From Patescibacteria group bacterium (GTDB lineage Bacteria > Patescibacteriota > Minisyncoccia > UBA6257 > GWB1-50-10), in contig JBFLWN010000005.1 in assembly GCA_040757555.1 (NCBI GenBank), positions 8,045-72,044 of the forward strand: DNA of 64,000 nt. Direction: 5' to 3'. A model generated the notes under the pieces. The model ran no database searches. It saw only the letters and a program-made list of their open reading frames with translations, and was not told the origin of the DNA. Positions 1-51,265 of this stretch are shown here, in pieces; the stretch's first letter is position 1; every line of letters starts with the position of its first letter. The translations under genes were made by a program, and so were the position numbers.

Positions 1-2098
1 CATTCCCCTCCCTTTTTATTGTCACTTCCACGGTTCCATTTTCTCCGGTATATTTTACCGCGTTTGAAATGAGATTTTGAAAAATAATTCTTGTAAGGCC
101 TTGGTCAAGAAGGAGAACCGGAATGGTGTTATCGTAAAATTCTTTTACCTTTAATTTCTTTTCTTCTATTTTTTGTGAAAGTTCTTTTATGATCTCCTGA
201 GAAATTTCTATAATATTTGTCGGTTGTGGATCAATCGCAAATGTACCCAGATCGATTCGAGAAACATTTAAAAGCGCTGTCACAAGTTGACCCATTCGTT
301 TACTCCCTCGATATACTTCGCCAAGATAGTCTTTTTGTTTTTTATTTAATTTTCCCACATCGCCGTCAAGTAACATCTCGGTGTACCAATTCATTGTAGA
401 AAGCGGAGTTCTTAATTGATGTGATGCAATAGAAACAAATTCTGTTTTTGCTCGATCAATCTTTTTATGCTCAGTGATATCTCTTTCAACTCCGACAAAA
501 AACGCAATTTCTCCAACTTTATTAAGAACGGGTGAAACAGAAATTACCGCGTCATATAATTCTCCATTTTTTCTTTTGTTTCTTATTTCTCCGATGAATG
601 TCTGTTTCTTGTTTTTTATAGTGTCCCAAAAATTTTTATAAAATTCGTCTGACATTGGTGCCTTCCATAAAGTCCCCGCCTTTTTTCCAATTGCTTCTTC
701 TGGATCATAACCCGTAATTCTTTTTATGGCTTTATTTCCGTATAACACAATTCCTTCTTGGTCGGTGATAACAATATGATCAGATACGCTATCTACCGCC
801 AATTTGAACTTCTGGAGGTCGCTTGCGAGGTTTTCGGCTCGTTGCTTTTCGATATCAATATCCTCTAAAATATTTGCAAGTGATTTTCGTTGTTCTTCCA
901 AATACTTGTCTCTTTCTACCAACTCTTTTGTTTTTTCTATAACCTCCCGCTTGGTGTTATTATCCGATTCTTTTATTTTCTTTATCATTATATTTATAGC
1001 GCTATCGAGATTATTGAATTCTTTTATATTTGTTTCTATTTTTGTGTCTACAGAATAATTACCGTTGCCAATTTCCTCAATTTTTTTATTTATTTTTCCA
1101 AAGGGTTTTAAAATTCTTCTTACCACAAGAAAAATAATCAATACGGAAAGCACCGTTGTTGCCAAAACAAAAAGACCGAGATTTGTAGTAAGATCTGTTA
1201 TTGGTTGCATCGCCTCGTTGAGTTTTTTCTCAAACACTATATAAAATGGAAATCCATCTATCTTAGAAACGTTTAAATATTCCAATGCCTTATCTTCATC
1301 ATCGTAGATTTCCTTTTCCCATATTCCTTGTATGTCGAACAAATTATTCTGGATATCATCATATCCCAATGCATCAACCACCTTCCCCCCATAGCGTTCT
1401 TTATTCGCAGTCTCTTTTTTTATTTCACTTATTGACCCGATACTCTTAAACAGATCCTCATTATTAGTCGAATAAAACACAATGCCGAAATTATCAATAA
1501 GCATCACCTCAAGATCCTTCGTAATATTGCTGAAGTTTAGAAGCTCCGAAAGATAGGTGGGATCAATTTTTATTACTGCAACACTAAAAATTTCACCTTC
1601 TTTGTTTTTTATTGGCTTGGAAAAATAAAGACCCAACTCATTGGTAACTGCCCCAAATGCAACATCAATCCCATGCTTCCCGGAAATTGCATCAACGAAA
1701 TAATTTCTGTATGAAAAGTCCTTTTGTAGCAACCGTTCATCTGTGGTGCTAATGACAAGACCAGTCTTGTCCATGATATAGACCGCCAAAAAGTGATCAT
1801 TGTGCTGATATCCCTTCAATACACTTACCATATCTCCATATTTGTACTTTTTCGGTTCCTCAATATATGACACTATCATTTCATCTCCGGCAAGTTTGGT
1901 TATGGTGTACTGAATATCCTTTAAAGCCGCATCTAGATCCCTGGATTTATCGATAATTAAACTTTTTGAGTTTTCTTCAAGATTATTTTTTAAAATATCT
2001 CCCGCATAATAAAAAACAAAAAGTGATGCCACTGTTCCAAAGAATATAACAATAAGGGTGGAAAAAATAAGTATCCTGTTACTGATCGTCGTTTTCAT
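1..2098 (-). CDS. Sensor histidine kinase (TM, Cache-like periplasmic domain, HAMP, PAS, HisKA, HATPase_c); 3' end runs off window start
   Basis: Manual translation from ATG at 2096-2098 gives an uninterrupted minus-strand frame to position 1 (MKTTISNRILIFSTLIVIF...). HisKA H-box SHQLRTPLST and a HATPase region are present. Absent from the ORF track because there is no stop in the window. Confidence 0.7.
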   Translation of the reverse strand, partial: MKTTISNRILIFSTLIVIFFGTVASLFVFYYAGDILKNNLEENSKSLIIDKSRDLDAALKDIQYTITKLAGDEMIVSYIEEPKKYKYGDMVSVLKGYQHNDHFLAVYIMDKTGLVISTTDERLLQKDFSYRNYFVDAISGKHGIDVAFGAVTNELGLYFSKPIKNKEGEIFSVAVIKIDPTYLSELLNFSNITKDLEVMLIDNFGIVFYSTNNEDLFKSIGSISEIKKETANKERYGGKVVDALGYDDIQNNLFDIQGIWEKEIYDDEDKALEYLNVSKIDGFPFYIVFEKKLNEAMQPITDLTTNLGLFVLATTVLSVLIIFLVVRRILKPFGKINKKIEEIGNGNYSVDTKIETNIKEFNNLDSAINIMIKKIKESDNNTKREVIEKTKELVERDKYLEEQRKSLANILEDIDIEKQRAENLASDLQKFKLAVDSVSDHIVITDQEGIVLYGNKAIKRITGYDPEEAIGKKAGTLWKAPMSDEFYKNFWDTIKNKKQTFIGEIRNKRKNGELYDAVISVSPVLNKVGEIAFFVGVERDITEHKKIDRAKTEFVSIASHQLRTPLSTMNWYTEMLLDGDVGKLNKKQKDYLGEVYRGSKRMGQLVTALLNVSRIDLGTFAIDPQPTNIIEISQEIIKELSQKIEEKKLKVKEFYDNTIPVLLLDQGLTRIIFQNLISNAVKYTGENGTVEVTIKREGN

Positions 2099-2112
2099 TA
2101 TATTTTTTAAAA

Positions 2113-2502
2113 TTATCTTATATATTTTTTTACTCTTTCAATCATCTCTTGTATCGAAATATTCGCTTTAATAAGATAATCGGACGCGCCAAGTTTTTTA
2201 GCTTTACTCACATCTTCATCTTGGCCAAGATTAGAGACCATGATAACGGGGATATGCAGAAGGTCTGGATCTGACTTAAGTATTTTCAATGTATCAAAAC
2301 CATTCTGGATCGGCATGATAATATCCAGAAGAATTAATTGTGGATCTTTTTGTTTTGCAATTTCGAGAACTTCTCTCCCATTACTCGCCAAAAACACAAC
2401 ATATCCCTCTTTTTCTAACTTGAGACGAAAAATATTCGCATAATTTTTATCATCTTCACCTACCAATATTTTATTTTTTTTAGGAACTATTTTGTTTTCC
2501 AT
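2113..2502 (-). CDS. Response regulator, receiver domain only (CheY-like)
   Basis: 129 aa; ILVGEDD...LLDIIMP...SNLGQDED...KLGASDYLIK receiver motifs; no output domain. Confidence 0.85.
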   Translation of the reverse strand: MENKIVPKKNKILVGEDDKNYANIFRLKLEKEGYVVFLASNGREVLEIAKQKDPQLILLDIIMPIQNGFDTLKILKSDPDLLHIPVIMVSNLGQDEDVSKAKKLGASDYLIKANISIQEMIERVKKYIR

Positions 2503-2505
2503 ATA

Positions 2506-3870
2506 TTATTTAAGAATAGGAATCGAGAAATAAAATGTTGAACCTTTATTTTCTACACTTTCAAACCATATGCGCCCCCCCCATCTCTCTATATATGATC
2601 TTACAATAAAAAGACCGAGACCTGAACCATCGGGAACACTCAAAATTGCACGAGATCCCCTAAAAAATCGGGAAAAGACCTTTTCTTTCTCGTTATCGGG
2701 GATACCCATTCCAGTATCAGAAACAGATATAATAATTTCGTTTTTTCTGTCTTCTATAATAATGGAAATTGAACCACGAGAAACATTATAACGAATCGCA
2801 TTTCCAATTATATTTTGAATAACATCGCGAAATCGTCTTGGATCAACAATAACATCGATGAGGATATATTTTTTTACATCAAAAGAAACAGAGATCTCCA
2901 TTTTTTCGATTTCTGAAATATATTCTTGAATGACCGATTGAATAATCGGTCCCAAAAGAACGTGTTCTGGACGATCGTCGAATCTCCCCTCTTCAATATG
3001 AGAAATGTTTAAGAGGTCATTTACGAGTCCAATTGCTCGTTTATTTGTTTCATATATGTTTTGGATGATCGATTTCACTGCTTCGGGAAATGAGGTGCCC
3101 ATTTCTTCCATGAGAAGTTCGATATTCCACCGAATTGATCCGAGAGGAGTTCTTAATTGATGTGCTGCCACCGATATGAAACCGCTTTTCATCTCATCTA
3201 TCTCCTTTTCTTTAGTGATATCTCTCAGTGCAATAACCGTCCCATGAAGTACTCCCTGAATAATTACGGGAGAGATATTTAAAGACACGGGAATTTTCTT
3301 CTGAGATCCTTCCTTCTTGAGGTAAAAAAATCCCTTTGGTTTGGTAAGAAATGGAACCGCATCTTCTTTTAAGAAAAATAATTTTTGTAAAGGATGGGTA
3401 CTTTTTGAAATTTTCTTTTCTCTTTCGTCGTACAATCCAATAAATTCAAATATATTCTTCCTCTTCCATTCGTTTTCTTCACACATAAGAATGTGCTCAG
3501 CCTGCGGATTCAAAAAAACAATAATCCCTTTCTCATCGGTCGCAATAATTCCATCTGCAATACTCTTTAATAGCGCCTCGTCTAACTTTTGTTTTTCCTC
3601 AACAGATTCTTTCTCATGACGTACAATGAGAAACGCCTGTACGGTAAGCAACATACTTCCTACAAAAACAAAGATCCCCGAAATACTAGAAAGAAGTTCT
3701 GAAGTAAGATCAGGATTAAAATAAATAAGAAAACGAATTGTGCGTTCCGCAAAACCCGAGACTCCCCATAACCCAAGAAATATCATAAGAAAAGACACCG
3801 TCATGAGTCCTGCGTGTTGACGGGAAACTTCTGAATTAGAAAAGAATCTCCTTTTTGTTAAACGTCGCAT
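2506..3870 (-). CDS. Sensor histidine kinase (2 TM, PAS, HisKA, HATPase_c)
   Basis: 454 aa; H-box VAAHQLRTPLGSI; N/G boxes (GNAIRYN, DTGMGIP, GSGLGL). Confidence 0.85.
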   Translation of the reverse strand: MRRLTKRRFFSNSEVSRQHAGLMTVSFLMIFLGLWGVSGFAERTIRFLIYFNPDLTSELLSSISGIFVFVGSMLLTVQAFLIVRHEKESVEEKQKLDEALLKSIADGIIATDEKGIIVFLNPQAEHILMCEENEWKRKNIFEFIGLYDEREKKISKSTHPLQKLFFLKEDAVPFLTKPKGFFYLKKEGSQKKIPVSLNISPVIIQGVLHGTVIALRDITKEKEIDEMKSGFISVAAHQLRTPLGSIRWNIELLMEEMGTSFPEAVKSIIQNIYETNKRAIGLVNDLLNISHIEEGRFDDRPEHVLLGPIIQSVIQEYISEIEKMEISVSFDVKKYILIDVIVDPRRFRDVIQNIIGNAIRYNVSRGSISIIIEDRKNEIIISVSDTGMGIPDNEKEKVFSRFFRGSRAILSVPDGSGLGLFIVRSYIERWGGRIWFESVENKGSTFYFSIPILK

Positions 3871-3876: not shown

Positions 3877-4338
3877 TTAGCGAGTAGCATTAATAACGGC
3901 CCCTTGCTCAGCACGTGGTGCACATACCGTCACACGATTTGTTGCATCCTTCGAGATGCTATATCCGGTACCATATGTCGAAGTCGAACCTGTTGGATCT
4001 ATGGGAATTGATACAAGGTATTTTTTACTGTTGGTAAGAACTGAAAGATCAACAAGATTTGTGCAAATTCCATCCATCTTACAAATTTCCGTTGTCGCGG
4101 CTATTCCACAATCTGAGTTAAGAGGGATTGTTGAGGGAATTGTTCCCGAGTTATCGATTGCATATTGATATACCGCGTTCAATATTGTATTCACGTCAGC
4201 CTTCCGCTGTGTATTTTTTGTATCTGCAAGTTGTTTTCCAGGATTGATGGCAAGGATGATAATACCGGCGAGAATCGCGATGATTGCAACAACTAATAAT
4301 ACTTCGAGAAGTGTGAATCCATCTTGTTTTTTGTTCAT
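3877..4338 (-). CDS. Type IV pilin (class III signal peptide, G|FTLLE)
   Basis: Internal start MNKKQDGFTLLEVLLVVAIIAILAGII at 4338; prepilin cleavage motif; Cys pairs in the C-terminal half. Confidence 0.8.
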   Translation of the reverse strand: MNKKQDGFTLLEVLLVVAIIAILAGIIILAINPGKQLADTKNTQRKADVNTILNAVYQYAIDNSGTIPSTIPLNSDCGIAATTEICKMDGICTNLVDLSVLTNSKKYLVSIPIDPTGSTSTYGTGYSISKDATNRVTVCAPRAEQGAVINATR

Positions 4339-4445
4339 AATAATAGAATCTTCTGCGACTTGTCCTTTTATTTTACCATATTCTGCGCTAAAAAACGGAA
4401 AAACCCACATATATTATGCAGGTTTCTTCGTATTATTATGTATCC

Positions 4446-4904
4446 TTATCGAGTAACTGTTATGGTTTGAGAATTTTCTGCGTGGGGAGCGGTGACAGTG
4501 ATTCTTGAATTTGCTGTCTTCAAAATACTGTATCCGGTACCCACAGTGGATGTCGATTGTGGGTCGACTGGAATTGCAGTCAAATATTTTTCATTGAGTG
4601 CGAGTGTATCAGTCAGATTTACTAGAGATGTACAAGATGAAGTTGCAATCGTGCTTCTACAGATTTCTGTGGTGGTGGTAGTCACTGTTGAGGGAATTGT
4701 TCCTGAATTATCGATCGCATATTGATATACGGCATTCAATATCGTATTTACATCTGCTTTTCTCTGGGTATTCCTTGCATCCGCAAGTTGTTTTCCGGGA
4801 TTGATTGCGAGAATCACGATACCCGCAAGAATTGCGATAATTGCAACGACTAATAATACTTCGAGTAAGGTAAACCCATTTTGTTTTTTGTTGTATGTTT
4901 TCAT
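4446..4904 (-). CDS. Type IV pilin paralog (tandem duplicate of 3877..4338)
   Basis: MKTYNKKQNGFTLLEVLLVVAIIAILAGIV; N-terminal ~70 aa nearly identical to the neighbouring pilin; C-terminus divergent and Thr-rich. Alternative start at 4928. Confidence 0.8.
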   Translation of the reverse strand: MKTYNKKQNGFTLLEVLLVVAIIAILAGIVILAINPGKQLADARNTQRKADVNTILNAVYQYAIDNSGTIPSTVTTTTTEICRSTIATSSCTSLVNLTDTLALNEKYLTAIPVDPQSTSTVGTGYSILKTANSRITVTAPHAENSQTITVTR

Positions 4905-4912
4905 TTTTAATT

Positions 4913-5329
4913 TTAATTTTCCTGCCACGACAAAATTTGAATTGTAGGACTTATTTGATTAATTTGAATATTTATTTTTCGAACAATGGTTCCTACAGTG
5001 CTTGATGAAATAATAGTACGATTTGATCCCCCACCATTCGTTACTGAATATCCACACGTCCCCTGTCCCAAAGTAAGTGTGCCCGAACTCGCAAAAGAGG
5101 GAGAATCATGTATCTGCTGAAGCGCTTCCTCAGCACATGCGTTTGCCAATCCTTTTGCTTGATTCGACTTTTCATTTGCAAAACTTGTTTGCGATGACCC
5201 CACACCAAGCAATATGACAGAAACAGCAATTGCGACACCAATAGCCCCCGCCACCAAAACACTCACTAATGTAATATATCCACCTACTCCGTCATTATAA
5301 CAAATATTATCTTTAAAATTAAAATGCAT
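4913..5329 (-). CDS. Pilus-associated protein with prepilin-like hydrophobic N-terminus lacking Glu5 (minor pilin / assembly component)
   Basis: 138 aa; GGYITLVSVLVAGAIGVAIAV N-terminal segment; sits inside the pilus operon. Confidence 0.35.
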   Translation of the reverse strand: MHFNFKDNICYNDGVGGYITLVSVLVAGAIGVAIAVSVILLGVGSSQTSFANEKSNQAKGLANACAEEALQQIHDSPSFASSGTLTLGQGTCGYSVTNGGGSNRTIISSSTVGTIVRKINIQINQISPTIQILSWQEN

Positions 5330-5343: not shown

Positions 5344-5886
5344 TTATCGAAGTGTTCCCGATGCGATAAATGTTTTTTGAAAATCATACTCGTTTACGTT
5401 ATTTGGATTCTTGTAGGAAAGGGTAAATTGGATACGGAGAGTTCCAGGAGTGCTTGGACGGGAAAGATTTTGAAATGTGAGATTGGAAGCGGTGATACGG
5501 GAATTGGTAAGTGAAACAGCTGCACCCGCGCCTTCAGTAAGGCGAATTGCTCCTCCAGAGAGATCAAAGATTGTTGGATTATTTGAGGGGACCGTAGTAT
5601 TTAAAGAAAGAGAAGGTGCATTTGTGCCTATACTTGGAGAATTAATGAGATCAGCGTTTCGAATGGTCTGCGTTATAATTTGCATTACTTGCAATCCCTG
5701 TTGCTCAACCTCTCCGATGGCTTGATTTTTAATGCGTGACCCCAGCAACATAGAGAGGAAAACAGATACCGCAACAACCAACACTGCGGAAAGCCCTACG
5801 TACAACAATAACTCAACGAGTGTAAACCCTCGATTGTTTTTTGAGTTTGTGCTGAAAAATTTCTTTGGATTAATATTTTTTTTCAT
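5344..5886 (-). CDS. Minor (pseudo)pilin, prepilin-type N-terminus
   Basis: RGFTLVELLLYVGLSAVLVV motif; 180 aa. Confidence 0.7.
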   Translation of the reverse strand: MKKNINPKKFFSTNSKNNRGFTLVELLLYVGLSAVLVVAVSVFLSMLLGSRIKNQAIGEVEQQGLQVMQIITQTIRNADLINSPSIGTNAPSLSLNTTVPSNNPTIFDLSGGAIRLTEGAGAAVSLTNSRITASNLTFQNLSRPSTPGTLRIQFTLSYKNPNNVNEYDFQKTFIASGTLR

Positions 5887-5888: not shown

Positions 5889-7280
5889 TTATGGTGCAAT
5901 CACACTAAGTTCCGCATTGTCGGTTATACCGACACAATATGCACGATCAGATATTTCGTCATACGCAACCCCATTGAATGTCGCACCATTGTATACTCCA
6001 ACTTGTATTGGAACACTCGGAATAGATATGTCGACTATTTCCAATTCACTTGGACCATTTGATTCGGCGAGAAACGCATATGCATTACCGTTTCCCATTG
6101 AAATATCATTAATGACAGCTCCTCCGGTAAACGATGCGACAAGTAGAGGACTCGTTGGAGTCGATATATCTACTATTCTAAGTGACGATCCTTGCCCAAC
6201 TAACAATGTTGAGCTCGCAAGGGCAATAGTTGTTGCATTCGTATTGCCGGCAAAATTTAATCCACTGAGATTAACCGGAGCTGATGGGACTGAAATATCT
6301 ATTATTTCTAACTCTTGCGCATTATCACCCGAAGCAAGATAGGCATAGTTTCCCGAAATAACTATTTCATATTCCGTTTGGCCGAGACTAAGCGATCCAA
6401 TGAGAGATGGCGTACCCGGATTGGAAACATCTATAACTATAAATGTGTCACCCCCTCCCGTATCACGACCAAGATATGCAGTCGAACCAACTACATAAAT
6501 TCCTACTCCATTTCCATTTCCTGGAGCATTATATGTTCCCACAACACTTGGAGAAACTGGGTTTGATATATCGATGATTTGCAATTCTTGGGCATTATCA
6601 TTATTTGTCACATATGCATAATTTCCCAAGACAAAAATATTATTCGGTGTTCCGGGAAGCGTGAGTGATCCGGCAAGTGATGGAAGAGAGGGGGTGCTGA
6701 TATCCACCACAATAAAATCCGGCGTACCGCCATTTCGTACAATATATGCATAATTACCTTGTACGGCTATTTTAAGACCATCATTTGTACCACTCGCATC
6801 ATATGTACCGACAAGCGTATTTGGATTTGCCCAATTTCCAATAACTATCGCCATCCAATTCGTAAGACGTGAAACAAGTGAAACCGAACCCGATCGTTGT
6901 TGATTTTGTTGCCAGGAGACATTTGAGGTAATCAATTTTCTTTTTGCATCAACGGTTGCAATGGTTATTTGGCGAGTGAAACCACCTATCGTATCCTGCG
7001 AACCCGAAAATATCCATTGATTACTTGACGTCGCAAGTCCATATGTTCCATCGACAAGATTTACGTACGATGCATCACGGATATTACGAACCACTTCCAA
7101 GCCCTCTTCTGCGAGTATCGTCGCTCGCACACGACTCCCTGAAAGTGCGGTTGACTCTTGACCATATAAATATGCACCAACAAGTCCGGTTACCAACAAT
7201 CCAAAAATTGTGGCCGCAAGAAGTGCTTCAATGGAAATAAAACCTCTTTTCAAATTAATAACTGACCATTCCTTTTGCAT
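5889..7280 (-). CDS. Prepilin-like protein fused to LVIVD-repeat beta-propeller domain (candidate pilus tip adhesin)
   Basis: Start MQKEWSVINLKRGFISIEALLAATIFGL at 7280 (26-nt overlap with upstream gene). About 6-7 tandem ~44-aa repeats GNYAY..NAQEL.IIDIS.P..P (LVIVD repeat signature). Confidence 0.7.
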   Translation of the reverse strand: MQKEWSVINLKRGFISIEALLAATIFGLLVTGLVGAYLYGQESTALSGSRVRATILAEEGLEVVRNIRDASYVNLVDGTYGLATSSNQWIFSGSQDTIGGFTRQITIATVDAKRKLITSNVSWQQNQQRSGSVSLVSRLTNWMAIVIGNWANPNTLVGTYDASGTNDGLKIAVQGNYAYIVRNGGTPDFIVVDISTPSLPSLAGSLTLPGTPNNIFVLGNYAYVTNNDNAQELQIIDISNPVSPSVVGTYNAPGNGNGVGIYVVGSTAYLGRDTGGGDTFIVIDVSNPGTPSLIGSLSLGQTEYEIVISGNYAYLASGDNAQELEIIDISVPSAPVNLSGLNFAGNTNATTIALASSTLLVGQGSSLRIVDISTPTSPLLVASFTGGAVINDISMGNGNAYAFLAESNGPSELEIVDISIPSVPIQVGVYNGATFNGVAYDEISDRAYCVGITDNAELSVIAP

Positions 7281-7698
7281 TAGTGATGATTGTTCTTGTT
7301 TCATTATTAATTGATGTAAATGTGAGTGTCCCCGTGCTTTGTGGGAGACCCGTGAAACGGCTGAATACATATTCCTGAGTTCCTGATGCAATAATATTTG
7401 TCGGAATAGTAAACACTTCATCAAATGTGGAATCACGACCCACGTAGTTTGGACCCTTAAAAAGAGTAATACTCCCGGATTGCGTGTGTGTACCCCAACT
7501 TGTATCGCCATCGGAAGCCTGGGCTAACAATTGGGCTCGCCGTAAACTTTGTGCAAGGGTCACTGTGGCAATATCGAGTTCATTTCTATTTTGAAACGAT
7601 TGAAAAATCGGAATTCCTGTCGCAACAATAACAGAAATAATCGCAAGCGAAAGTAATATTTCAATAAGGGTGAACCCTCTATTATGTGAAAAATACAT
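7255..7698 (-). CDS. Minor pilin (GspH/FimT-like prepilin)
   Basis: MYFSHNRGFTLIEILLSLAIISVIVA; 147 aa. Confidence 0.7.
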   Translation of the reverse strand: MYFSHNRGFTLIEILLSLAIISVIVATGIPIFQSFQNRNELDIATVTLAQSLRRAQLLAQASDGDTSWGTHTQSGSITLFKGPNYVGRDSTFDEVFTIPTNIIASGTQEYVFSRFTGLPQSTGTLTFTSINNETRTIITNAKGMVSY

Positions 7699-7710: not shown

Positions 7711-8811
7711 TTACGGATTTAGTCCTCCAAGGAGAGAATATAATGGCAATATCACTGCGAGAGCAATTCCCGCAACACCAATCCACACAATCACAAGAAG
7801 TATTGGCTCAAGAATTACAGAAAGATTTTTTGTCGTAATCTCGGTTTTTTCTTCAAAAATACTTCCGATGGTGGTAAATATTTTCGCCAAGTTTCCCGAT
7901 TGTTCTCCCGCAACAATCATTTGTTGTATGGGAACCGGAATTAATCTTTTTGTGTAGGGGAATGTAGAAAAACTTTTTTTGAAAGAATTCCCCTCCTCAA
8001 TTTCTTTTCGAATATAATCGAAAAACATTTGATACCTTCGAAATCCCGTCACTTCACTCAATGAACTTAACGCGTCAGTTAAGGATAGTCCGGCATTTAA
8101 AAGTGTTCCAAGCATATATCCAAAACGTGCGATTTCGATTTCTTTCACCAATTTTCCGATTGCAGGAAAAAGAAATAATACATCCTGTCCAATATGTTTT
8201 GTTTTTTTGAATATAAAGAGAAAAAACCAAAGAATGAATAACACAGCAACAAAAATGGGTATCACAATATATCCATATGTTCCCAAATAGGTTCCTACAT
8301 TAATAAGCATGCGGGTAAGAACCGGAAGATCCAAACGTAATCCTGAGAATACGGAAGCAAGTTTAGGAAGTATAAACCACGTGATCCCAATACCGATCAC
8401 GACAGTGAGAGAAAATACGATTCCCGGGTAAAGCATCGCTGAGCGTATTTTTGATTTAAACACGCGATCTTTTCGTTCTTGAGAAATTATCACTTTGAAA
8501 TTTTCTGATAATCTTCCCGTTTCTTCCCCGATGCGGAGAAGAGCAATCACATTTGTGGAAAATATATTGGTATGGTCGAGTACTTTCCATAATGAAACCC
8601 CCGCATCAATCTCCTCTTTCATAAAGTCTATCATCTCTTTCATGGCTTTTGACTTACTTTCCGATTTAATTGCTTCAAGCGCAACCATAATATTCATTCC
8701 GGAAGAAATGAGGAGAGAAATATTCTCTATAAAATAGGCCCGCTCATCCTTGGTGATGCGTGCAAGCGAAAAGAAAGAGAAAAAATTTTTTTGTTTTCTG
8801 TTTTTTTCCAT
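7711..8811 (-). CDS. pilC: Type IV pilus inner-membrane platform protein PilC (T2SS-F family)
   Basis: 366 aa; two GspF-type repeats; polytopic membrane protein. Confidence 0.85.
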   Translation of the reverse strand: MEKNRKQKNFFSFFSLARITKDERAYFIENISLLISSGMNIMVALEAIKSESKSKAMKEMIDFMKEEIDAGVSLWKVLDHTNIFSTNVIALLRIGEETGRLSENFKVIISQERKDRVFKSKIRSAMLYPGIVFSLTVVIGIGITWFILPKLASVFSGLRLDLPVLTRMLINVGTYLGTYGYIVIPIFVAVLFILWFFLFIFKKTKHIGQDVLFLFPAIGKLVKEIEIARFGYMLGTLLNAGLSLTDALSSLSEVTGFRRYQMFFDYIRKEIEEGNSFKKSFSTFPYTKRLIPVPIQQMIVAGEQSGNLAKIFTTIGSIFEEKTEITTKNLSVILEPILLVIVWIGVAGIALAVILPLYSLLGGLNP

Positions 8812-8814: not shown

Positions 8815-10464
8815 TTATTCTTTTGAAGGAGACGAAACACGCAATAATTCTTCTACGGTAGTAATCCCCGCTTTTACTTTCTCTATTCCATCTTCAAACA
8901 AAGACTTCGATCCTTGTGTGCGAGCAAGAGACCATATGTCTTGAGCCGATGGATTTTTCATTACCAAGTCTTTTATTTCAGGTGTCACGTGGATAAACTC
9001 AAATATTCCTGTTCTTCCTTTGTATCCGGTGAAATTACACACCGGACATCCCTTTCCTTTGTATAAAGTAGTTTTTTCTTCAAAGTGTTTGGAAATAAGT
9101 GGAGATATTTTTTCCAATACGGACCGATCCACCGGAATACTGAAACGGCATGCCTCACAGATTTTTCTCACCAACCGTTGTGCAATAATCAACTCAAGCG
9201 TCGAGGCGAGTAAAAATGGTTCTACTTTCATATCAAACAGACGAGGAATTGCGGTTGCGGCATCGTTTGCGTGAAATGTAGAAAATAATAAATGCCCGGT
9301 AAGTGCGGCATTTACCGCAATATCGGCAGTTTCGTTATCACGGATTTCTCCCACCAGAATAATATCGGGATCCTGTCTCACGATCGAACGAAGCCCCTCG
9401 GAAAATGTGAGATTGGTCTGTTCATTCACCTGAATCTGATTGATTCCGGTTATTTTATATTCAATAGGATCTTCGATGGTGGTGATATTTTTTTCCGGGG
9501 TATTAAAAGTTTTGATTAGCGAATACAGTGTTGTGGTTTTTCCGGATCCCGTTGGTCCTGTCACAAGAATCATTCCGAATGGTTTTTGCGCTGCCTTTAC
9601 GAGCATATTCTGATGTTCCTCGGAAAGACCTAAATCACCTAGGGTAAATCCCCTCACATATTCCGAAAGTAAACGTATTGCTATTTTTTCGCCATCCATG
9701 ATTGGAATAACGGAAATTCTCATATCGATATTCTCAGTCCCATTTTTATATCGAAGCGAACCATCCTGCGCGGAAAAATGTTCATCCGTTCTCATGTGTC
9801 CCTGTATCTTTATTCTGTTTAAAATATTCTCGTAATATTCCTTCGGGATTCTCCCCGCTTCCTGTAACACTCCATCGATTCTGAAACGAATCACCACTTC
9901 CTGCTCCTGTGGTTCGAAATGTATATCGGATGCTCGATAGGTCGCAGCATCTTCGATAATTTCTCCGATTATTTCGGGAGCCACTTTTACATTCTGTTTA
10001 ATGATTGATGCAAATCGCGTTTCAAGCGCTTTTTTGTAATACACAAAAGAAGCATTAATATCATCGGGAAGTGAATATGCAAGTGTAATTTTTTTCTCAA
10101 CCCCAAATACCATTTTAAGGCTCTCCCCCAATCCCACTTGGGAAGGATCATCAGTACTTATGAGAAATTCGTCTTTTGTCTCTTTAAACAGCACAACTCT
10201 GAATTTTCTCGCGATATCTTCCGGAATACGAAGTGCTTGTTCGCGAGACGGTTGATGGGAATTAAGGTCCGCATATTGAACAAAAAATGATTCGGCAATC
10301 GCCTGTCCAATCAAATCCCTTGTGATAAGTTCTTTTGATATAAGATAATCGATCGCGGTTATATTTCCCGTCTGTGCGACGATCTCCGCCTTTTTCATGT
10401 CAGCGGGATCAATATAATTACGCTCAATCAATATTTCTTTCACCTTTGGGTCGTATAGGTTCAT
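8815..10464 (-). CDS. pilB: Type IV pilus assembly ATPase PilB (GspE family)
   Basis: Walker A GPTGSGKTT; Asp box; tetracysteine CEAC...CPVC; N-terminal GSPII_E_N-like region. Confidence 0.9.
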   Translation of the reverse strand: MNLYDPKVKEILIERNYIDPADMKKAEIVAQTGNITAIDYLISKELITRDLIGQAIAESFFVQYADLNSHQPSREQALRIPEDIARKFRVVLFKETKDEFLISTDDPSQVGLGESLKMVFGVEKKITLAYSLPDDINASFVYYKKALETRFASIIKQNVKVAPEIIGEIIEDAATYRASDIHFEPQEQEVVIRFRIDGVLQEAGRIPKEYYENILNRIKIQGHMRTDEHFSAQDGSLRYKNGTENIDMRISVIPIMDGEKIAIRLLSEYVRGFTLGDLGLSEEHQNMLVKAAQKPFGMILVTGPTGSGKTTTLYSLIKTFNTPEKNITTIEDPIEYKITGINQIQVNEQTNLTFSEGLRSIVRQDPDIILVGEIRDNETADIAVNAALTGHLLFSTFHANDAATAIPRLFDMKVEPFLLASTLELIIAQRLVRKICEACRFSIPVDRSVLEKISPLISKHFEEKTTLYKGKGCPVCNFTGYKGRTGIFEFIHVTPEIKDLVMKNPSAQDIWSLARTQGSKSLFEDGIEKVKAGITTVEELLRVSSPSKE

Positions 10465-10829
10465 GAAATTATTTTTTGTATTCGTTGTATTATTTCTGCA
10501 ATTGGCGTATCGGATTTCACAAAATAATCCTTCGCTCCGAGTTCAAGCGCAGTTTTAATATCATTATCTTGCCCAAGATTTGAAGAAACAACCACAGGAA
10601 CGGTATTTCCTCTTTTTCTCAATTCTTCAAGTACATCAAACCCATTCTTTTTTGGCATCATCAAATCGAGAATAATGAGATTGTATGTATCGTTTTTCAG
10701 CAAAAGAAGCGCCTGGTCACCATTTTCAGCGATTGTTACTTCATATCCAGATCGTAAAAGTTTTGCCTCAAGTGCTCGCGCCATTGCTTTCTCGTCTTCC
10801 GCCACTAGAATTTTCTTTTTATTATCCAT
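10461..10829 (-). CDS. Response regulator, receiver domain only
   Basis: 122 aa; ILVAEDE...ILDLMMP...KDYFVK; overlaps the pilB start (operon). Confidence 0.85.
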   Translation of the reverse strand: MDNKKKILVAEDEKAMARALEAKLLRSGYEVTIAENGDQALLLLKNDTYNLIILDLMMPKKNGFDVLEELRKRGNTVPVVVSSNLGQDNDIKTALELGAKDYFVKSDTPIAEIIQRIQKIIS

Positions 10830-20169: not shown

Positions 20170-21333
20170 ATGGAATCAGGAATTTTAGTTGCTTTCATTA
20201 TTGTTTTTTTGATTGGTCTCGGTATTGGATTTGCTTGGGGGAAAAAAACAAGAAAAGAAGAGAGAGAAGATAATCTTCGTTTTCAACAATCGCCATCACA
20301 ATTTGTATCTCCCCCACCACGAAGAAAAAGTCCTATTGAGGAGTTTGGCGATAGACTGAATGAATTACTGAGAACAAATGATCTAAAAACTGCATTTTTT
20401 TCTGCATTCAATGAAGTGAGTAATAAGTTTTCTGACGGTGATAGGTTAAATTTTGCAGAAGCATTAGAAGAGACGGCAAAAAACAGTAAGTATAATCCGT
20501 CAGATCTTGTGACAATAATGGCGGAAGAGAACTACTCACTTGGGAAAATTGCAAACTTTTTGAACGATAACACAAATCTTGAGGTGAAAGAGTTTACTGA
20601 AGCACTTGTTCCATTTGCAAAAGGAGATACTCCAAAACTCAAGGCGGCGGAACTATTAAGCGCCATAGAAAACATCTTTGATCTTAATGATGAGGGTGAA
20701 AATCTTATTCCTTCGCTCATCACATTAGGATGCTCGCCGAACGAAATTGCCGAATCATTGTACGAGAATACATCAATGGACCTTCTGGATGTAATAAAAG
20801 CAATGAAGTGGGAAAATTCTCCTTTGGATATTATCGCACTCGCAAAGAAATTGAAAACCGACCTCACGGATAGCGATGAGTATAAATCACTTCGGGACAC
20901 CGAAGGTATCGATTTTAAAACCGCCGCAAAAATTCTTAAAGAATGTGGAAGTACGGCACTTGATATCCTAAATACCGAAGAAGAATATGACACTATCCCT
21001 GATGATGATACGGATGAAATGAAAAATGTTATTGAGATACTCTCTGCAGCTGAATTTTCAAGAAGCGAAATTCTTGATGCAATATGGGAATCCAATTTTA
21101 TGCAAAATAAAAATGGCGGAGAAATTGTCGATTCGCTTTATGATGCTGGTGTTCCTATGAATGAAATCAATGAACTGCTTATTGCAAAAAATTATGATCT
21201 GGACGATCTCGATCAAGAATTACGTGATAATACAGGCATGGAGTTGAAAACTCGCATAGAGCTCATGCACATGTTTTTGAACACAGATAAGAAAAACCCG
21301 GTAGAAGAAAAGAAGGATGGGGAGAAATCGTAA
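20170..21333 (+). CDS. Hypothetical membrane-anchored acidic protein with internal helical repeats
   Basis: N-terminal TM (ILVAFIIVFLIGLGIGFAWG); repeated ~35-aa units containing xPxEIxxSLYE-like motifs. Confidence 0.5.
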   Translation: MESGILVAFIIVFLIGLGIGFAWGKKTRKEEREDNLRFQQSPSQFVSPPPRRKSPIEEFGDRLNELLRTNDLKTAFFSAFNEVSNKFSDGDRLNFAEALEETAKNSKYNPSDLVTIMAEENYSLGKIANFLNDNTNLEVKEFTEALVPFAKGDTPKLKAAELLSAIENIFDLNDEGENLIPSLITLGCSPNEIAESLYENTSMDLLDVIKAMKWENSPLDIIALAKKLKTDLTDSDEYKSLRDTEGIDFKTAAKILKECGSTALDILNTEEEYDTIPDDDTDEMKNVIEILSAAEFSRSEILDAIWESNFMQNKNGGEIVDSLYDAGVPMNEINELLIAKNYDLDDLDQELRDNTGMELKTRIELMHMFLNTDKKNPVEEKKDGEKS

Positions 21334-23473: not shown

Positions 23474-24787
23474 CTAAAATGAGAACCTCTCATAATGGAC
23501 ACGTCTTCTCGGAATACCTATCTCTTTGAGTGCATCCAATACTCCCTTCATCATAGGCGATGGACCACAGAGATAGATATCGCGCTCTTTCACATCGGGA
23601 ACAAGCCGAAGAATTTTTTCCTTATCAATAAATCCTTTTTCTCCGTTCCATTTTTCATCGTTACTCAACACGTGATACACACGAAATCCGTCCTTCAAAA
23701 AAGAATTTAACTCCTCTTTAAAAATAATATCTTTCTCTTCTCTGTTTCCCCAGAGAAGAACTTCATCTTTCTTTCCTGAAAAATATTCTATGAGTGATCG
23801 TATGGGAGTGATTCCAATACCTCCCGCGATATGAAGAACCTTTTTTTCTTCGCTTACTTTATGGGTAAATATGCCGTGGGGACCATCAATAAGAACCGGA
23901 GTACCAATCGGAATACGGGAAATCTTTTCACTGAAATCTCCAAGACTCTTCACGGTGATTCTGATAAAAGTGCCATTCGGGGCAACGGAAAGAGAATACG
24001 GATGTGCATCAAAGAAAAAGTTTTTATGCAAAAAACGAAATATAAAAAATTGACCCGGATCAAGATGGAACTTCTCCATATGTTTTCCCGAAATGTAAAT
24101 CGAAACACATTCATTATTTTCGTGTACCACCCGGTCAACAAAAAACCGATGTTTCCAGAAATTATACAATGGGGTGAAAAAACGATAAAAAAGCAAATTT
24201 CCAAAAACGAATATATACAGTACATACCAATACACCACGAAGGGAGTATTATTTTGGAAATCTCCCCCATTTTCTATCTGATGTCCGAATGCAAGCGCAA
24301 TTGCGACATACATCCCAAGATGCATTACATACCACCATTCATATTTCAATTTTTTCTTTATGAGAGAAAACGAAATAACAATGAGGAAAATAAAAATGAG
24401 GAACGCCGCATATGCCTGAAGCATATCACTCCAATTGAATAGAAATAGTTTTGTTTGTTCAATATACGATACCTCACTAAATCCCTTATATGCGGTAGTG
24501 ATAAAAAATGGATGTAAAAAAACAAAGAAAAGAGTGGCCACTCCATTTATGTGGTGAATGCGAAATAATTTATCCAACCCAAAAAGAGATTCAACCCACT
24601 TTACTCGCCCAATAAGCACTAACTGAAAAAGAGATGCAAATGCAGCGAGGAGACCCGCAAGGCGCCCAAGCGACAATACCACTTGCCGTATATCACCGAA
24701 AAGCAAAGCGCCCGATTTTTGAAACCAAAAAAACAAAAGGAGTCCAAAAACAAGAACGCATAAAATAAATAAAAATAATTTTTTCAT
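23474..24787 (-). CDS. Ferric-reductase-like transmembrane domain fused to FAD/NAD(P)-binding FNR-like domain (NOX/Fre-like membrane oxidoreductase)
   Basis: 6 TM with conserved His; HPYSLS flavin motif; GGIGITP NAD(P) motif. Confidence 0.75.
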   Translation of the reverse strand: MKKLFLFILCVLVFGLLLFFWFQKSGALLFGDIRQVVLSLGRLAGLLAAFASLFQLVLIGRVKWVESLFGLDKLFRIHHINGVATLFFVFLHPFFITTAYKGFSEVSYIEQTKLFLFNWSDMLQAYAAFLIFIFLIVISFSLIKKKLKYEWWYVMHLGMYVAIALAFGHQIENGGDFQNNTPFVVYWYVLYIFVFGNLLFYRFFTPLYNFWKHRFFVDRVVHENNECVSIYISGKHMEKFHLDPGQFFIFRFLHKNFFFDAHPYSLSVAPNGTFIRITVKSLGDFSEKISRIPIGTPVLIDGPHGIFTHKVSEEKKVLHIAGGIGITPIRSLIEYFSGKKDEVLLWGNREEKDIIFKEELNSFLKDGFRVYHVLSNDEKWNGEKGFIDKEKILRLVPDVKERDIYLCGPSPMMKGVLDALKEIGIPRRRVHYERFSF

Positions 24788-26508
24788 TATTCCCCCTTAC
24801 ATTTTTTACATAAATCTTTCACTGCGGCTGGCACCATTTCACACGAAGGAGCCATCATAAAATTCCTACACATATCTTCACTCAAAGCACCCTGGGGCGT
24901 ACCCATGGGAATTCCCTGAGGAGATACCATTCCACTTGGAATATTTTGGGGAATAACTCCCCTCATTTCTTCCTCAATAAGTTTTTTTGCTTCCTCTGGA
25001 CTCCGTATCTCTCCTTGTCGTATTTTCTCTTGTATACCGCTCGACCCAATCTTTTCTTCTATTATTCCCCTCATTTCCTGTGGAACCTGATTCAAACCCT
25101 CTTGCATCTTCTGTTGCATCATTCCCTGCATAACACCGGCACATCCCTCAAATACACCGGCGATTTCTGGTCCAATTTCAACATCTTCTCCACGTTTTAT
25201 TTTTTCTATTGTTTCTTTTCCAATTTTTTCTTCAACACAACCCATCATTTCTGGAGGCATTGTCTCAAGCGCATCTCTCATTTTTTTTATTCCCTCTTCC
25301 TTCATTTTTGAAAAACAATTTTTCATGACATCGCCCATTTCTGGGGTTGGCGCATCCCCGTTTTTTATCGCATTAAGCTTGTCTGAACCACCCAATCCTT
25401 GTTCTAAGCATTGAATAGTTTCAGGGGTTGCAATCTTCAATCCTTCATTTATTTTTTGCTTTATTTTTGGCAAAAATGCATCAACACATTTTTTTACCTG
25501 GTCTCCAAGTAATGGACCAGGAACCAATGTTCCTCCCTCTATTTTCTGAACAACATCATCTCCAAGATTATTTTTCAAACACCCGACCATCTCTTCTGGC
25601 ATCTGTCGTATCCCAGATCGAAGTCTTCCCATCCCCTCTTCAATTTCTTTTAATTTTTCCTCTGGAATAATGTTATGTTCTTTTGCAAATGCAAAACATA
25701 CCCCTTGGTTTTCTGGTGTATTACAATACGCATCACACGATTCTTTTGATCGACATCCCCCAGGACCCTTTCCCCCAGTTTTCTTTGCCATTTCAATTTC
25801 TTCAGCACTCACAATCCCAGTTTTTTCTGCAAATGAGATACACTCATTGAAATGTGTATCTGCCTCACAATACAATTCACACTCTGCCTTCGTTTTGCAT
25901 TTTCCAGGAGATTCCCCCCGTGTAATATAAGGAAGCACTTTTTTTGCCTGTTCGATTTCTTCTTTTGAAAAAAATCCTGCTTTTTCCCCAAACGCGAGAC
26001 ATTCGTCAACATGTGCTGTGTCCGCACAATATTGTTCACAACTTGACTTGTCCTTACATTGTCCAGGCAATGTTCCTCCTTCTTTTAAAGCTTTAGCAAC
26101 TTGTTTTGCCTGTGCTAAATCTTCAAGTTTTATGAAATTGTGTTTTTCCGCAAAGGCAATACACTCATCTGCGTGCGCAATGTCATTACAATATACTTCA
26201 CAATCAACTTTGTTCCTGCATTGTCCCGGCCCTTCTCCTTTCAATACATCTGCAAATTCTCTTGCCCTCTCCGCATCGTCTTTTGAAATAAGATTATGTT
26301 CTGTTCCAAACGCAGTGCATTCCGTTATATGATCCGGTTGGTTGCAGTATGTCTTACAAGTTTCTTGATTCGTACAGTTTCCCAATTCTTTTACCGGAAA
26401 CACAATTGTGGATACCTGTGCGTCCACAATAATCCAAAAACTTACAAAGATACCTAAAAAAATGATACCAACGGAAAAAAGAAAACGTTTCATATTATTT
26501 ATTTTCAA
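24787..26508 (-). CDS. Secreted/anchored cysteine-rich repeat protein (novel)
   Basis: N-terminal signal/TM; five ~48-aa repeats with C-x5-C-x3-C-x8-C spacing; then four ~45-aa PEEM.GC..EKIG repeats; Cys-rich tail. ATGA overlap with the upstream oxidoreductase. Confidence 0.6.
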   Translation of the reverse strand: MKINNMKRFLFSVGIIFLGIFVSFWIIVDAQVSTIVFPVKELGNCTNQETCKTYCNQPDHITECTAFGTEHNLISKDDAERAREFADVLKGEGPGQCRNKVDCEVYCNDIAHADECIAFAEKHNFIKLEDLAQAKQVAKALKEGGTLPGQCKDKSSCEQYCADTAHVDECLAFGEKAGFFSKEEIEQAKKVLPYITRGESPGKCKTKAECELYCEADTHFNECISFAEKTGIVSAEEIEMAKKTGGKGPGGCRSKESCDAYCNTPENQGVCFAFAKEHNIIPEEKLKEIEEGMGRLRSGIRQMPEEMVGCLKNNLGDDVVQKIEGGTLVPGPLLGDQVKKCVDAFLPKIKQKINEGLKIATPETIQCLEQGLGGSDKLNAIKNGDAPTPEMGDVMKNCFSKMKEEGIKKMRDALETMPPEMMGCVEEKIGKETIEKIKRGEDVEIGPEIAGVFEGCAGVMQGMMQQKMQEGLNQVPQEMRGIIEEKIGSSGIQEKIRQGEIRSPEEAKKLIEEEMRGVIPQNIPSGMVSPQGIPMGTPQGALSEDMCRNFMMAPSCEMVPAAVKDLCKKCKGE

Positions 26509-42503: not shown

Positions 42504-42578
42504 TCCGGAGTAGCTCAGCGGTAGAGCAGGTGCCTGTTAAGCACTTGGTCGTAGGTTCGAATCCTACCTCCGGAGCCA
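42504..42578 (+). tRNA. tRNA-Asn (anticodon GTT), CCA encoded
   Basis: Acceptor TCCGGAG/CTCCGGA, D-arm GCTC-AGCGGTA-GAGC, anticodon loop CUGUUAA, T-arm GTAGG-TTCGAAT-CCTAC, GCCA 3' end. Confidence 0.85.
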
Positions 42579-44066: not shown

Positions 44067-44072
44067 AGTTAA

Positions 44073-46843: not shown

Positions 46844-46847
46844 AAAA

Positions 46848-47030: not shown

Positions 47031-47032
47031 AA

Positions 47033-47302: not shown

Positions 47303-47333
47303 AAAATAATTATACTTTACATTGCTTTACACA

Positions 47334-49485: not shown

Positions 49486-49589
49486 TAATTAAAACCTATT
49501 TAAAAACATTTCATAGTCTTCACGTAATTCTCAAAAAACGATAAAAGTGCTAACGTATAATCAACAACCAAATAAGAGACCTAACCCCA

Positions 49590-51263: not shown

Positions 51264-51265
51264 CT

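What the first reader, a model, noticed from the sequence alone, without database searches (positions are those of the whole stretch)
5889..7280. Prepilin fused to a multi-blade LVIVD-repeat beta-propeller: candidate pilus-tip adhesin
Inside a type IV pilus operon, one gene has a canonical class-III prepilin N-terminus (KRG|FISIEALLAATIFGL). Its remaining ~400 residues are 6-7 tandem ~44-aa repeats (GNYAY..N.QEL.IIDIS.P..P). This is the LVIVD beta-propeller repeat signature. The only propeller protein classically linked to type IV pili, PilY1, is a separate non-pilin protein. A covalent pilin-propeller fusion would place a propeller on the fibre itself. In a small-genome, possibly host-attached bacterium it is a strong candidate for the surface/host-binding determinant.
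Basis: partly seen in the sequence, partly recalled or inferred. Interest (0 to 1): 0.7.

Follow-up and report, generated by a model that had tools for sequence, protein, structure and literature searches.

The report
Pilin carrying a seven-blade propeller head
This gene from an ultrasmall (Patescibacteria) bacterium encodes a pilus subunit fused to a seven-blade propeller domain, probably shown at the pilus tip to bind something. The design is real and widespread, but it was already catalogued in 2021, and a similar propeller-bearing pilin was tested in a related bacterium in 2024.

Summary
Window 5889-7280 (minus strand) encodes a 463-aa protein with three parts:
- a class III prepilin signal (KRG|FISIE, Glu+5 invariant in 68 homologues);
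- a small pilin module whose predicted fold is closest to GspI/XcpV-class minor pseudopilins;
- a short linker followed by a 7-bladed LVIVD beta-propeller (Pfam E = 4.6e-41; AlphaFold pLDDT 90.6).

It sits second in a four-gene minor-pilin cluster ordered like gspH-I-J-K, downstream of pilB-pilC. Two major-pilin paralogues follow, and two-component regulator genes flank the cluster. This cassette is conserved in other Patescibacteria.

More than 2,400 homologues were found, and the best 120 are near full length. The same pilin module, in the same operon slot, carries other heads elsewhere (fn3 arrays, TNF/BclA-like, DUF2341, double propellers).

The most likely role is a tip-displayed ligand- or host-binding head covalently fused to a core minor pilin. 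That role is inferred, not shown.

It is not a PilY1 homologue. Pilin-LVIVD architectures are listed in Raynaud et al. 2021 (Dataset S1). A propeller-bearing minor pilin, PilX2 of Saccharibacteria TM7x, has been shown to promote host binding.

Verdict: a real feature and a new member of a known kind. Interest is moderate.

The parts
5889..7280 (-). Gene for the bimodular minor pilin (463 aa plus stop). An alternative start at 7304 gives the 471-aa NCBI product.
   Evidence: ORF and translation. It is 100% identical to NCBI 'MAG: hypothetical protein AB1333_02750, Patescibacteria group bacterium'.
7242..7280 (-). Leader peptide, residues 1-13, ending in Lys-Arg-Gly. This is the class III signal, with predicted prepilin-peptidase cleavage after Gly13.
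   Evidence: The G|F..xE motif is present. Gly-1 occurs in 58/64, Phe+1 in 61/64 and Glu+5 in 68/68 homologues. Homologues pass the Pfam N_methyl cut-off. Leader residues are otherwise variable (entropy 2.66).
6861..7241 (-). Pilin module, residues 14-140: the alpha1 helix (16-67) plus an antiparallel beta-sheet (78-140). It is GspI/PilV-class.
6819..6860 (-). Inter-module linker, residues 141-154.
   Evidence: The only internal stretch with pLDDT below 50 is 144-146. Conservation is lower here.
5892..6818 (-). Seven-bladed LVIVD beta-propeller head, residues 155-463.
7255..7698 (-). Upstream minor pilin, GspH/ComGD-like (147 aa). Its end overlaps the start of the propeller-pilin gene.
   Evidence: N_methyl at E = 1.9e-07. 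ComGD at 5.5e-11 and GspH at 5.4e-07, both below the curated cut-offs.
5344..5886 (-). Downstream minor pilin (180 aa) with a canonical GFTLVE motif, in the GspJ/PilW-like slot.
   Evidence: N_methyl at E = 5.6e-06. Weak matches to PRK10557 and HpsC. It is conserved in L001 and L003.
4913..5329 (-). Fourth minor-pilin-like gene (138 aa). It has a hydrophobic N-terminus but no Glu at +5, and occupies the GspK/PilX-like slot.
   Evidence: Alignment of three orthologues shows no Glu+5. The class assignment is inferred from gene order.
4446..4928 (-). Major-pilin-like gene 1 (160 aa).
   Evidence: N_methyl at E = 1.7e-09. GspG- and ComGC-type matches.
3877..4410 (-). Major-pilin-like gene 2 (177 aa), a paralogue of gene 1.
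   Evidence: N_methyl at E = 8.5e-09. It is 67% identical to gene 1, with a nearly identical N-terminal half.
7711..8811 (-). PilC-type platform protein.
   Evidence: T2SSF at E = 3.1e-43, two domains.
8815..10464 (-). PilB-type assembly ATPase with an MshEN N-terminal domain.
   Evidence: T2SSE at E = 2.3e-121 and MshEN at 4e-07.
10461..10829 (-). Response-regulator receiver gene at the head of the cassette.
   Evidence: ORF. A Response_reg gene occupies the same position in L001, L003, L004 and L005.
2113..3870 (-). Histidine kinase (2506-3870) and response regulator (2113-2502) at the tail of the cassette.
   Evidence: ORFs. A kinase-plus-regulator pair occupies the same position in L001 and L003; L005 has sensor/kinase genes there but no regulator within the stretch held.

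Best explanation
The gene encodes a bimodular ('modular') type IV minor pilin of a Patescibacteria bacterium.

Shown or predicted from sequence:
- A class III signal peptide is followed by a GspI/PilV-class pilin module, a short flexible linker, and a seven-bladed LVIVD beta-propeller.
- The gene is the second of four minor-pilin genes ordered like gspH-I-J-K, directly after pilB-pilC.

Inferred mechanism:
- A prepilin peptidase cleaves after Gly13.
- The pilin module joins the three neighbouring minor pilins in the membrane to form the complex that primes filament assembly. That complex ends up capping the pilus.
- The covalently attached propeller is therefore displayed at or near the tip as the ligand-binding head. 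The ligand is most likely a surface component of a host or partner cell, or another substrate.
- In function it would replace the non-covalently docked PilY1/PilC adhesin of classical type IVa pili.
For: - Prepilin motif: Glu+5 is invariant, and Gly-1 and Phe+1 are conserved. Homologues pass the Pfam N_methyl cut-off.
- Model: pLDDT 90.6, with a 52-residue alpha1 helix, a beta-sheet, a linker and 7 blades.
- LVIVD: E = 4.6e-41.
- Gene order: regulator, PilB, PilC, H-like pilin, this gene, J-like pilin, a K-like gene without Glu5, then two major pilins (one in L005). Kinase/regulator genes follow in the window, L001 and L003. The order from regulator through the pilin genes recurs in a complete Moraniibacteriota genome (L001) and in L003 and L005. 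L004 matches as far as its contig reaches.
- Family size: more than 2,400 homologues; the best 120 cover 96-100% of the query at 41-80% identity, most at about 50%.
- Exchangeable heads: of the 150 best cluster representatives that share the pilin module, 73 carry the LVIVD propeller and 77 do not. Other heads include fn3 arrays, fn3 plus LVIVD, DUF2341 and TNF/BclA_C-like domains. These proteins occupy the same operon slot (L005 and L006). This is the expected pattern for a specificity module on a constant carrier.
- Precedents: S. sanguinis PilB and PilC are modular pilins acting as tip adhesins (PMC8179133). TM7x PilX2 is a minor pilin with a heptabladed propeller that is needed for efficient host binding (PMC11623550).
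Against: - No experimental data exist for this family. Processing, incorporation into the pilus, tip location and ligand are all inferred.
- The window protein itself gives no Pfam N_methyl or TIGR02532 hit at E <= 1. Only the motif and its homologues support the signal.
- No prepilin peptidase, PilM/N/O or PilT gene was found among the larger ORFs scanned in the 64-kb window.
- Among the 67 homologues aligned (48-78% identical overall), the propeller is only moderately less conserved than the pilin module. The mean top-residue frequency is 0.61 against 0.70-0.81. That fits a conserved ligand or a structural role better than a fast-evolving host-specific adhesin.
- LVIVD repeats have no established function.
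- Structure searches return only generic propellers, so they give no hint about the ligand.
Confidence: 0.6

Rival explanations
1. The propeller mainly serves pilus biogenesis. It acts as a cap that stabilises the minor-pilin priming complex and sets pilus number or length, as PilY1/PilC does in type IVa pili. Specific ligand binding would be secondary.
For: - The gene sits inside the core minor-pilin cluster.
- The LVIVD head is fairly conserved among the 67 aligned homologues, which are 48-78% identical overall.
- In Neisseria, PilC is required for biogenesis because it stabilises PilK (bioRxiv 10.64898/2026.09.18.752573).
- In TM7x, deleting pilX2 changed filament number and length.
Against: - The same carrier pilin works with unrelated heads in the same slot. 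The head is therefore unlikely to be a required structural part of the assembly complex.
- TM7x still made pili without PilX2.
Confidence: 0.15
2. The pilus is a DNA-uptake or nutrient-capture filament, and the propeller is the receptor for DNA or another soluble ligand. It would then be comparable to the DNA-binding minor pilins ComP and ComZ.
For: - Patescibacteria pili are often proposed to take up DNA (general knowledge, not tested here).
- ComGD and ComGE models give the best, sub-threshold matches to neighbouring minor pilins.
Against: - The structural matches are generic for 7-bladed propellers.
- No comEA or comEC gene was identified near the cassette.
- The TM7x pilus that carries the propeller pilin did not contribute to competence.
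Confidence: 0.1
3. The propeller is an enzyme displayed on the pilus, for example a hydrolase acting on a host envelope component.
For: - The solved structure closest by sequence and by Foldseek is the Sphingobium phosphotriesterase propeller 5hrm/5ioj (E = 4e-13, 15-21% identity).
- Modular pilins with peptidase modules are known.
Against: - The residues conserved in the propeller are the repeat-defining Gly, Tyr, Glu, Asp and Pro positions of each blade. They do not form a distinct catalytic set.
- The phmmer match to 5hrm is not significant (E = 0.47).
Confidence: 0.07
4. It is not a pilin. It is a surface protein anchored by an N-terminal transmembrane helix, or exported with an ordinary Sec signal, that merely lies in a pilus operon.
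For: The window protein has no N_methyl HMM hit at E <= 1. No prepilin peptidase was found in the window.
Against: - Glu+5 is invariant, Gly-1 and Phe+1 are conserved, and basic residues lie directly before the Gly.
- The hydrophobic stretch continues into a 52-residue helix packed on a GspI-like sheet.
- Orthologues pass the N_methyl cut-off.
- The gene's position between other pilins is fixed in every locus examined.
Confidence: 0.03

Closest known systems
Modular type IV pilins (Raynaud et al. 2021, PNAS, PMC8179133), including the catalogued IPR012902-IPR013211 (N_methyl-LVIVD) architectures
   Same: - An N-terminal pilin module is joined by a short linker to a bulky module that is not specific to pili.
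- Dataset S1 of that paper lists 30 proteins with IPR012902 followed by 1 to 13 IPR013211 repeats. The text mentions a Candidatus Falkowbacteria pilin with 12 copies.
- IPR013211 is the LVIVD repeat.
   Different: - That paper calls IPR013211 a 'motif of unknown function' and does not analyse these proteins further.
PilX2 of Nanosynbacter lyticus TM7x (Saccharibacteria), Grossman et al. 2024 preprint, PMC11623550
   Same: [quoted passage not shown] Deleting it halves host binding, and the authors propose it as the tip adhesin.
   Different: - The PilX2 propeller is described as RCC1-type, whereas this one is LVIVD. No RCC1 family appears.
- PilX2 was reported to lack a predicted PilD signal, whereas this family has a canonical one.
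PilY1/PilC, the tip adhesin of type IVa pili
   Same: It is a large beta-propeller protein associated with the core minor-pilin complex at the pilus tip, and it is involved in adhesion and biogenesis.
   Different: - PilY1 is not a pilin. It docks non-covalently through a 12-residue C-terminal plug onto PilK.
- Its propeller belongs to another family (IPR008707).
- Here the propeller is covalently fused to a GspI-class pilin.
GspI/XcpV/EpsI (and PilV-class) core minor pseudopilins
   Same: - The gene holds the same second position in an H-I-J-K-ordered cluster.
- GspI forms the tip trimer with GspJ and GspK (titles of PDB entries 3ci0 and 5vtm).
   Different: - GspI proteins are single-module and about 100-120 aa, with no C-terminal head.
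- There is no significant sequence-level match. The gspI HMM is not among the hits for this protein, and the profile search against PDB sequences found nothing significant.
S. sanguinis PilA-PilC tip complex (PMC9934059)

Membership tests
Type IV pilin / class III signal peptide proteins (Pfam N_methyl PF07963, IPR012902) | A short basic leader ending in Gly (or Ala), then Phe+1 and Glu+5 at the start of a hydrophobic stretch of about 20 residues. | tested here: met
   The sequence is KRG|FISIEALLAATIFGLLVTGL. In homologues, Gly-1 occurs in 58/64 (Ala in 6), Phe+1 in 61/64 and Glu+5 in 68/68.
Type IV pilin / class III signal peptide proteins (Pfam N_methyl PF07963, IPR012902) | A match to the N_methyl / TIGR02532 HMM above the curated cut-off. 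| tested here: inconclusive
   The window protein gives no hit at E <= 1. Orthologues P0016, P0058 and P0118 score 24.0-29.7 bits against a cut-off of 21.2.
Type IV pilin / class III signal peptide proteins (Pfam N_methyl PF07963, IPR012902) | The pilin fold: a long N-terminal alpha1 helix packed on an antiparallel beta-sheet. | tested here: met
   [not shown]
Type IV pilin / class III signal peptide proteins (Pfam N_methyl PF07963, IPR012902) | Cleavage and N-methylation by a prepilin peptidase, and polymerisation into a filament. | not testable with these tools
   No PilD-type gene was found among the window ORFs scanned. The rest of the genome was not available.
Type IV pilin / class III signal peptide proteins (Pfam N_methyl PF07963, IPR012902) | The gene is encoded alongside type IV filament machinery. 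| tested here: met
   PilB and PilC lie directly upstream and four N_methyl-positive pilin genes lie around the gene. The same order occurs in L001, L003, L004 and L005.
LVIVD-repeat beta-propellers (PF08309 / IPR013211) | Multiple LVIVD repeats above the Pfam cut-off. | tested here: met
   E = 4.6e-41, 138.3 bits against a cut-off of 20.2, in 6 stretches.
LVIVD-repeat beta-propellers (PF08309 / IPR013211) | The repeats fold into a closed multi-blade propeller. | tested here: met
   [not shown]
PilY1/PilC tip adhesins | A C-terminal PilY1-type propeller domain (IPR008707). | tested here: not met
   [not shown]
PilY1/PilC tip adhesins | A non-pilin protein that docks on the minor pilins through a C-terminal plug. 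| tested here: not met
   The protein has its own prepilin signal and pilin module, so attachment to the filament would be covalent.
Modular pilins (sensu Raynaud et al. 2021) | An N-terminal pilin module, a short linker, and a module defined by a signature not specific to type IV filaments. | tested here: met
   The architecture IPR012902-IPR013211(xN) is listed in their Dataset S1.
GspI/PilV-class core minor pilins | The small GspI-type fold and a position between the H-like and J-like genes. | tested here: met
   [not shown]
GspI/PilV-class core minor pilins | Sequence-level membership (TIGR01707 gspI or a PilV model). | tested here: not met
   No gspI or PilV hit for this protein at E <= 1. 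The profile search against PDB sequences found nothing significant. One source (JGI) labels homologue P0030 'PilV'.
GspI/PilV-class core minor pilins | Forms a tip complex with J- and K-class subunits. | not testable with these tools
The test would need AlphaFold-Multimer or co-purification.

The most novel reading that the evidence does not exclude
In many Patescibacteria, the GspI-class core minor pilin of this conserved cassette may act as a universal carrier whose C-terminal head is swapped between lineages. The heads seen are LVIVD propeller, double propeller, fn3 arrays, TNF/C1q-like and DUF2341. Under this reading the slot is the partner- or host-range determinant of the pilus, much like the receptor-binding proteins of phage tail fibres, and the LVIVD propeller is its most common head, recognising a conserved envelope ligand. 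It would also give LVIVD repeats their first function.
Probability: 0.3. Interest if true: 0.65.

Novelty: new member of a known kind. Interest (0 to 1): 0.4.

Why it matters
Almost all Patescibacteria are uncultured, and how they recognise and attach to partner cells is a central open question. Type IV pili are the best-supported attachment organelle in the few cultured Saccharibacteria.

This gene belongs to a very large, conserved family in which the presumed binding head is covalently fused to a core tip pilin. That makes it a well-defined, easily expressed target for ligand screening, such as glycan arrays or pull-downs on candidate host envelopes.

The exchange of heads at one operon slot suggests a simple genomic marker for differences in attachment specificity between lineages.

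The design principle is already published, and no function is shown here, so the finding is useful rather than surprising.

Tried and rejected
- DNA-level tandem repeats: none were found. The repeats are visible only at protein level.
- Sequence search of the whole protein against PDB: nothing significant, best E = 0.18.
- Profile of the pilin module against PDB sequences: only insignificant hits, including enterotoxin IIB B chain at E = 0.02 and pilin alpha1 segments at E around 1. These were rejected as chance or helix-only matches.
- PilY1 homology: rejected.
- Search for PilD, PilM or PilT in the window: not found among 20 larger ORFs.
- Retrieving the rest of the source contig through the exact protein: not on record.
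- Literature search for LVIVD together with pilin or Patescibacteria: one unrelated paper, and none that mention both LVIVD and Patescibacteria.
- PMC13622651 and PMC10936435 were checked and do not concern this protein.
- Mapping conservation onto the propeller faces, and checking phosphotriesterase metal ligands, could not be done. Model coordinates are not exposed to the scripting tool.
- Hypervariability of propeller loops: not seen in the set of homologues at about 50% identity. That set was chosen by similarity, so this result says little.

Full report
**Observation**

The finding lies on the minus strand. The ORF at 5889-7280 encodes 463 aa beginning MQKEWSVINLKRGFISIEALLAATIFGL. NCBI annotates the same gene from an ATG 8 codons upstream (7304, 471 aa) as a hypothetical protein of a Patescibacteria-group metagenome-assembled genome. 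No clear ribosome-binding site separates the two starts. Several homologues begin at the position of the second Met.

Pfam LVIVD (PF08309) matches at E = 4.6e-41 in six stretches, and Beta_propel (PF09826) matches above its cut-off. There is no DNA-level tandem repeat, so the periodicity is an old protein repeat and not a recent duplication or an assembly artefact.

**The N-terminus is a prepilin signal**

The window protein itself gives no N_methyl or TIGR02532 hit at E <= 1. The motif is nonetheless canonical. In an alignment of 68 family members, Glu+5 is invariant, Gly-1 is present in 58 of 64 (Ala in the other 6), and Phe+1 in 61 of 64. Basic residues lie directly before the Gly, and the leader is otherwise variable. 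Orthologues P0016, P0058 and P0118 pass the Pfam N_methyl gathering score. An ordinary Sec signal is therefore very unlikely. Cleavage itself cannot be tested here, and no prepilin peptidase gene was found among the larger window ORFs.

**Predicted structure**

AlphaFold2 with the 68-sequence alignment gives mean pLDDT 90.6. The model has these parts:
- a 52-residue helix (16-67);
- a beta-sheet (78-140);
- a short linker, which holds the only low-confidence internal residues (144-146);
- 28 strands forming seven four-stranded blades (155-462), each 39-47 residues long.

The first 140 residues are a separate pilin module.

**Class of the pilin module**

S. sanguinis PilA and Thermus competence pilins follow. 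Sequence-level searches do not detect this relationship.

**Genomic context**

On the minus strand the order is as follows:
- response regulator (10461-10829);
- PilB ATPase (8815-10464);
- PilC platform (7711-8811);
- a GspH/ComGD-like minor pilin (7255-7698);
- the propeller pilin (5889-7280);
- a canonical GFTLVE pilin with weak PpdB/HpsC-type matches (5344-5886);
- a 138-aa protein with a hydrophobic N-terminus but no Glu+5 in three orthologues (4913-5329);
- two major-pilin-like paralogues that are 67% identical (4446-4928 and 3877-4410);
- a histidine kinase and a response regulator (2113-3870).

This mirrors the gspH-I-J-K and fimU-pilV-W-X order. From general knowledge of type II secretion, the last and tip-most subunit is the one that lacks Glu5. 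The propeller pilin occupies the 'I' slot, in agreement with its fold. The J and K assignments are inferred from order and weak matches only.

**Family and synteny**

The best 120 cover 96-100% of the query. Five are 75-80% identical, three long forms of about 760-800 aa are 41-45%, and the rest are 47-55% identical and 448-503 aa long. The sources that name them use Patescibacteria lineage names: Parcubacteria, Moraniibacteriota and Gracilibacteria.

The cassette from regulator through the pilin genes is found in a complete 1.11-Mb Moraniibacteriota genome (L001), in a contig whose NCBI record names Candidatus Gracilibacteria (L003), and in L005. L001 and L003 also show the trailing kinase-plus-regulator pair. 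A 798-aa form with more LVIVD repeats, probably two propellers, sits in the same order as far as its contig reaches (L004).

**Exchangeable heads**

The pilin module alone (residues 1-155) was searched against 1.84 billion cluster representatives. This gave 2,720 hits, 205 of them at E <= 1e-30, with lengths from 135 to 1,300 aa.

Among the best 150, a profile of the propeller detects it in 73 and not in 77. Twenty of those 77 are at least 500 aa long, so they are not mere fragments. Their C-terminal parts include:
- fn3 arrays and fn3 plus LVIVD;
- DUF2341;
- weak TNF/BclA_C-like matches;
- domains unknown to Pfam.

Two such proteins were located. Both sit in the same slot after PilB, PilC and a small pilin, and before the pilin of about 170 aa (L005 and L006). 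The carrier is thus conserved at 50-60% identity while the head is swapped. That is the pattern expected of a specificity or binding module. It argues against the head being a required structural part of the assembly complex.

**Mechanism**

Shown or predicted from sequence: the architecture, the class of the carrier, the operon slot, the family size and the head exchange.

Inferred:
- processing by a prepilin peptidase;
- assembly with the three neighbouring minor pilins into the priming complex that ends up capping the filament;
- outward display of the propeller as a ligand-binding head.

I give the tip-displayed binding head about 0.6. The rivals are:
- a mainly biogenesis or capping role like that of PilY1 (0.15);
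- a receptor for DNA or another soluble ligand (0.1);
- a pilus-displayed enzyme (0.07);
- a non-pilin surface protein (0.03).

One caution applies to a narrowly host-specific adhesin. Among the 67 aligned homologues (48-78% identical overall), the LVIVD head is only moderately less conserved than the pilin module. That suggests a conserved ligand.

**Comparison with what is known**

That premise no longer holds.

- Raynaud et al. 2021 defined 'modular pilins' and listed 1,219 proteins in 264 architectures. Their Dataset S1 contains IPR012902-IPR013211 architectures totalling 30 proteins. The text mentions a Candidatus Falkowbacteria pilin with 12 such repeats, called a motif of unknown function. 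IPR013211 is the LVIVD repeat.
- Grossman et al. 2024 showed that TM7x PilX2, a minor pilin with a heptabladed RCC1-type propeller, is needed for efficient host binding and competitive fitness. They proposed it as the tip adhesin.
- PilY1/PilC, by contrast, docks non-covalently through a 12-residue plug onto PilK.

The present protein works like these tip adhesins. It is not a PilY1 family member, because that membership feature was tested and not met. It is a member of the modular-pilin class and of the LVIVD class.

No open-access paper found here discusses LVIVD pilins in Patescibacteria beyond the 2021 table.

**Verdict**

This is a real and well-supported feature. I rate it a new member of a known kind with moderate interest (0.4). 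The most novel reading still open is that this slot is a general, swappable partner-range determinant of Patescibacteria pili. I give that about 0.3 probability, and it would deserve about 0.65 interest if true.

Noticed in passing
window 42504-46843, and about 44000-52000: A tRNA-Asn (42504-42578, +) is directly abutted, with about 15 nt of overlap, by the 3' end of a large serine recombinase gene (42564-44066, -). Type I restriction-modification S and M subunit genes follow (44073-45038 and 45035-46843). The adjoining 44-52 kb region has the lowest G+C in the window (0.30-0.33, against about 0.38 elsewhere). This looks like an integrated mobile island at a tRNA gene.
   Followed up: partly
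window 3877-4928: Two tandem major-pilin-like paralogues are 67% identical overall. Their N-terminal halves are almost identical and their C-terminal halves diverge. This may indicate two antigenic or functional variants, or a heteropolymeric filament. A pair of small pilin genes occupies the same position in L001 and L003.
   Followed up: partly
window 1-3870 and 10461-10829; L001, L003, L005: Signalling genes bracket the pilus cassette. A receiver-only response regulator lies upstream of pilB, and a histidine kinase plus response regulator lie downstream. A second histidine-kinase-like ORF of more than 700 aa runs off the window start on the minus strand. The upstream regulator recurs in every related locus examined except L006, and the downstream kinase-regulator pair in L001 and L003. 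This suggests dedicated sensory control of this pilus.
   Followed up: partly
L001 6174-7613, L005 5139-6614, L006 3059-4498: In some relatives the PilC platform protein is longer (479-491 aa) and carries an extra SH3_3 domain. That domain is absent from the 366-aa PilC of the window.
   Followed up: no
window 7255-7304: The propeller-pilin gene overlaps the end of the upstream minor-pilin gene by 26 nt, or by 50 nt with the NCBI start. A comparable overlap of 26-50 nt occurs in L001, L004 and L005 but not in L003, which is consistent with translational coupling within the minor-pilin cluster.
   Followed up: no
window 24787-26508, 40274-41860, 47334-48440, 20170-21333: Several large ORFs (368-573 aa) have no Pfam match at E <= 1e-4. 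They were not examined further.
   Followed up: no
window 8815-10464: The PilB ATPase carries an N-terminal MshEN domain (E = 4e-07). From memory, this domain binds c-di-GMP in MshE. Whether that applies in a Patescibacteria genome was not checked.
   Followed up: no
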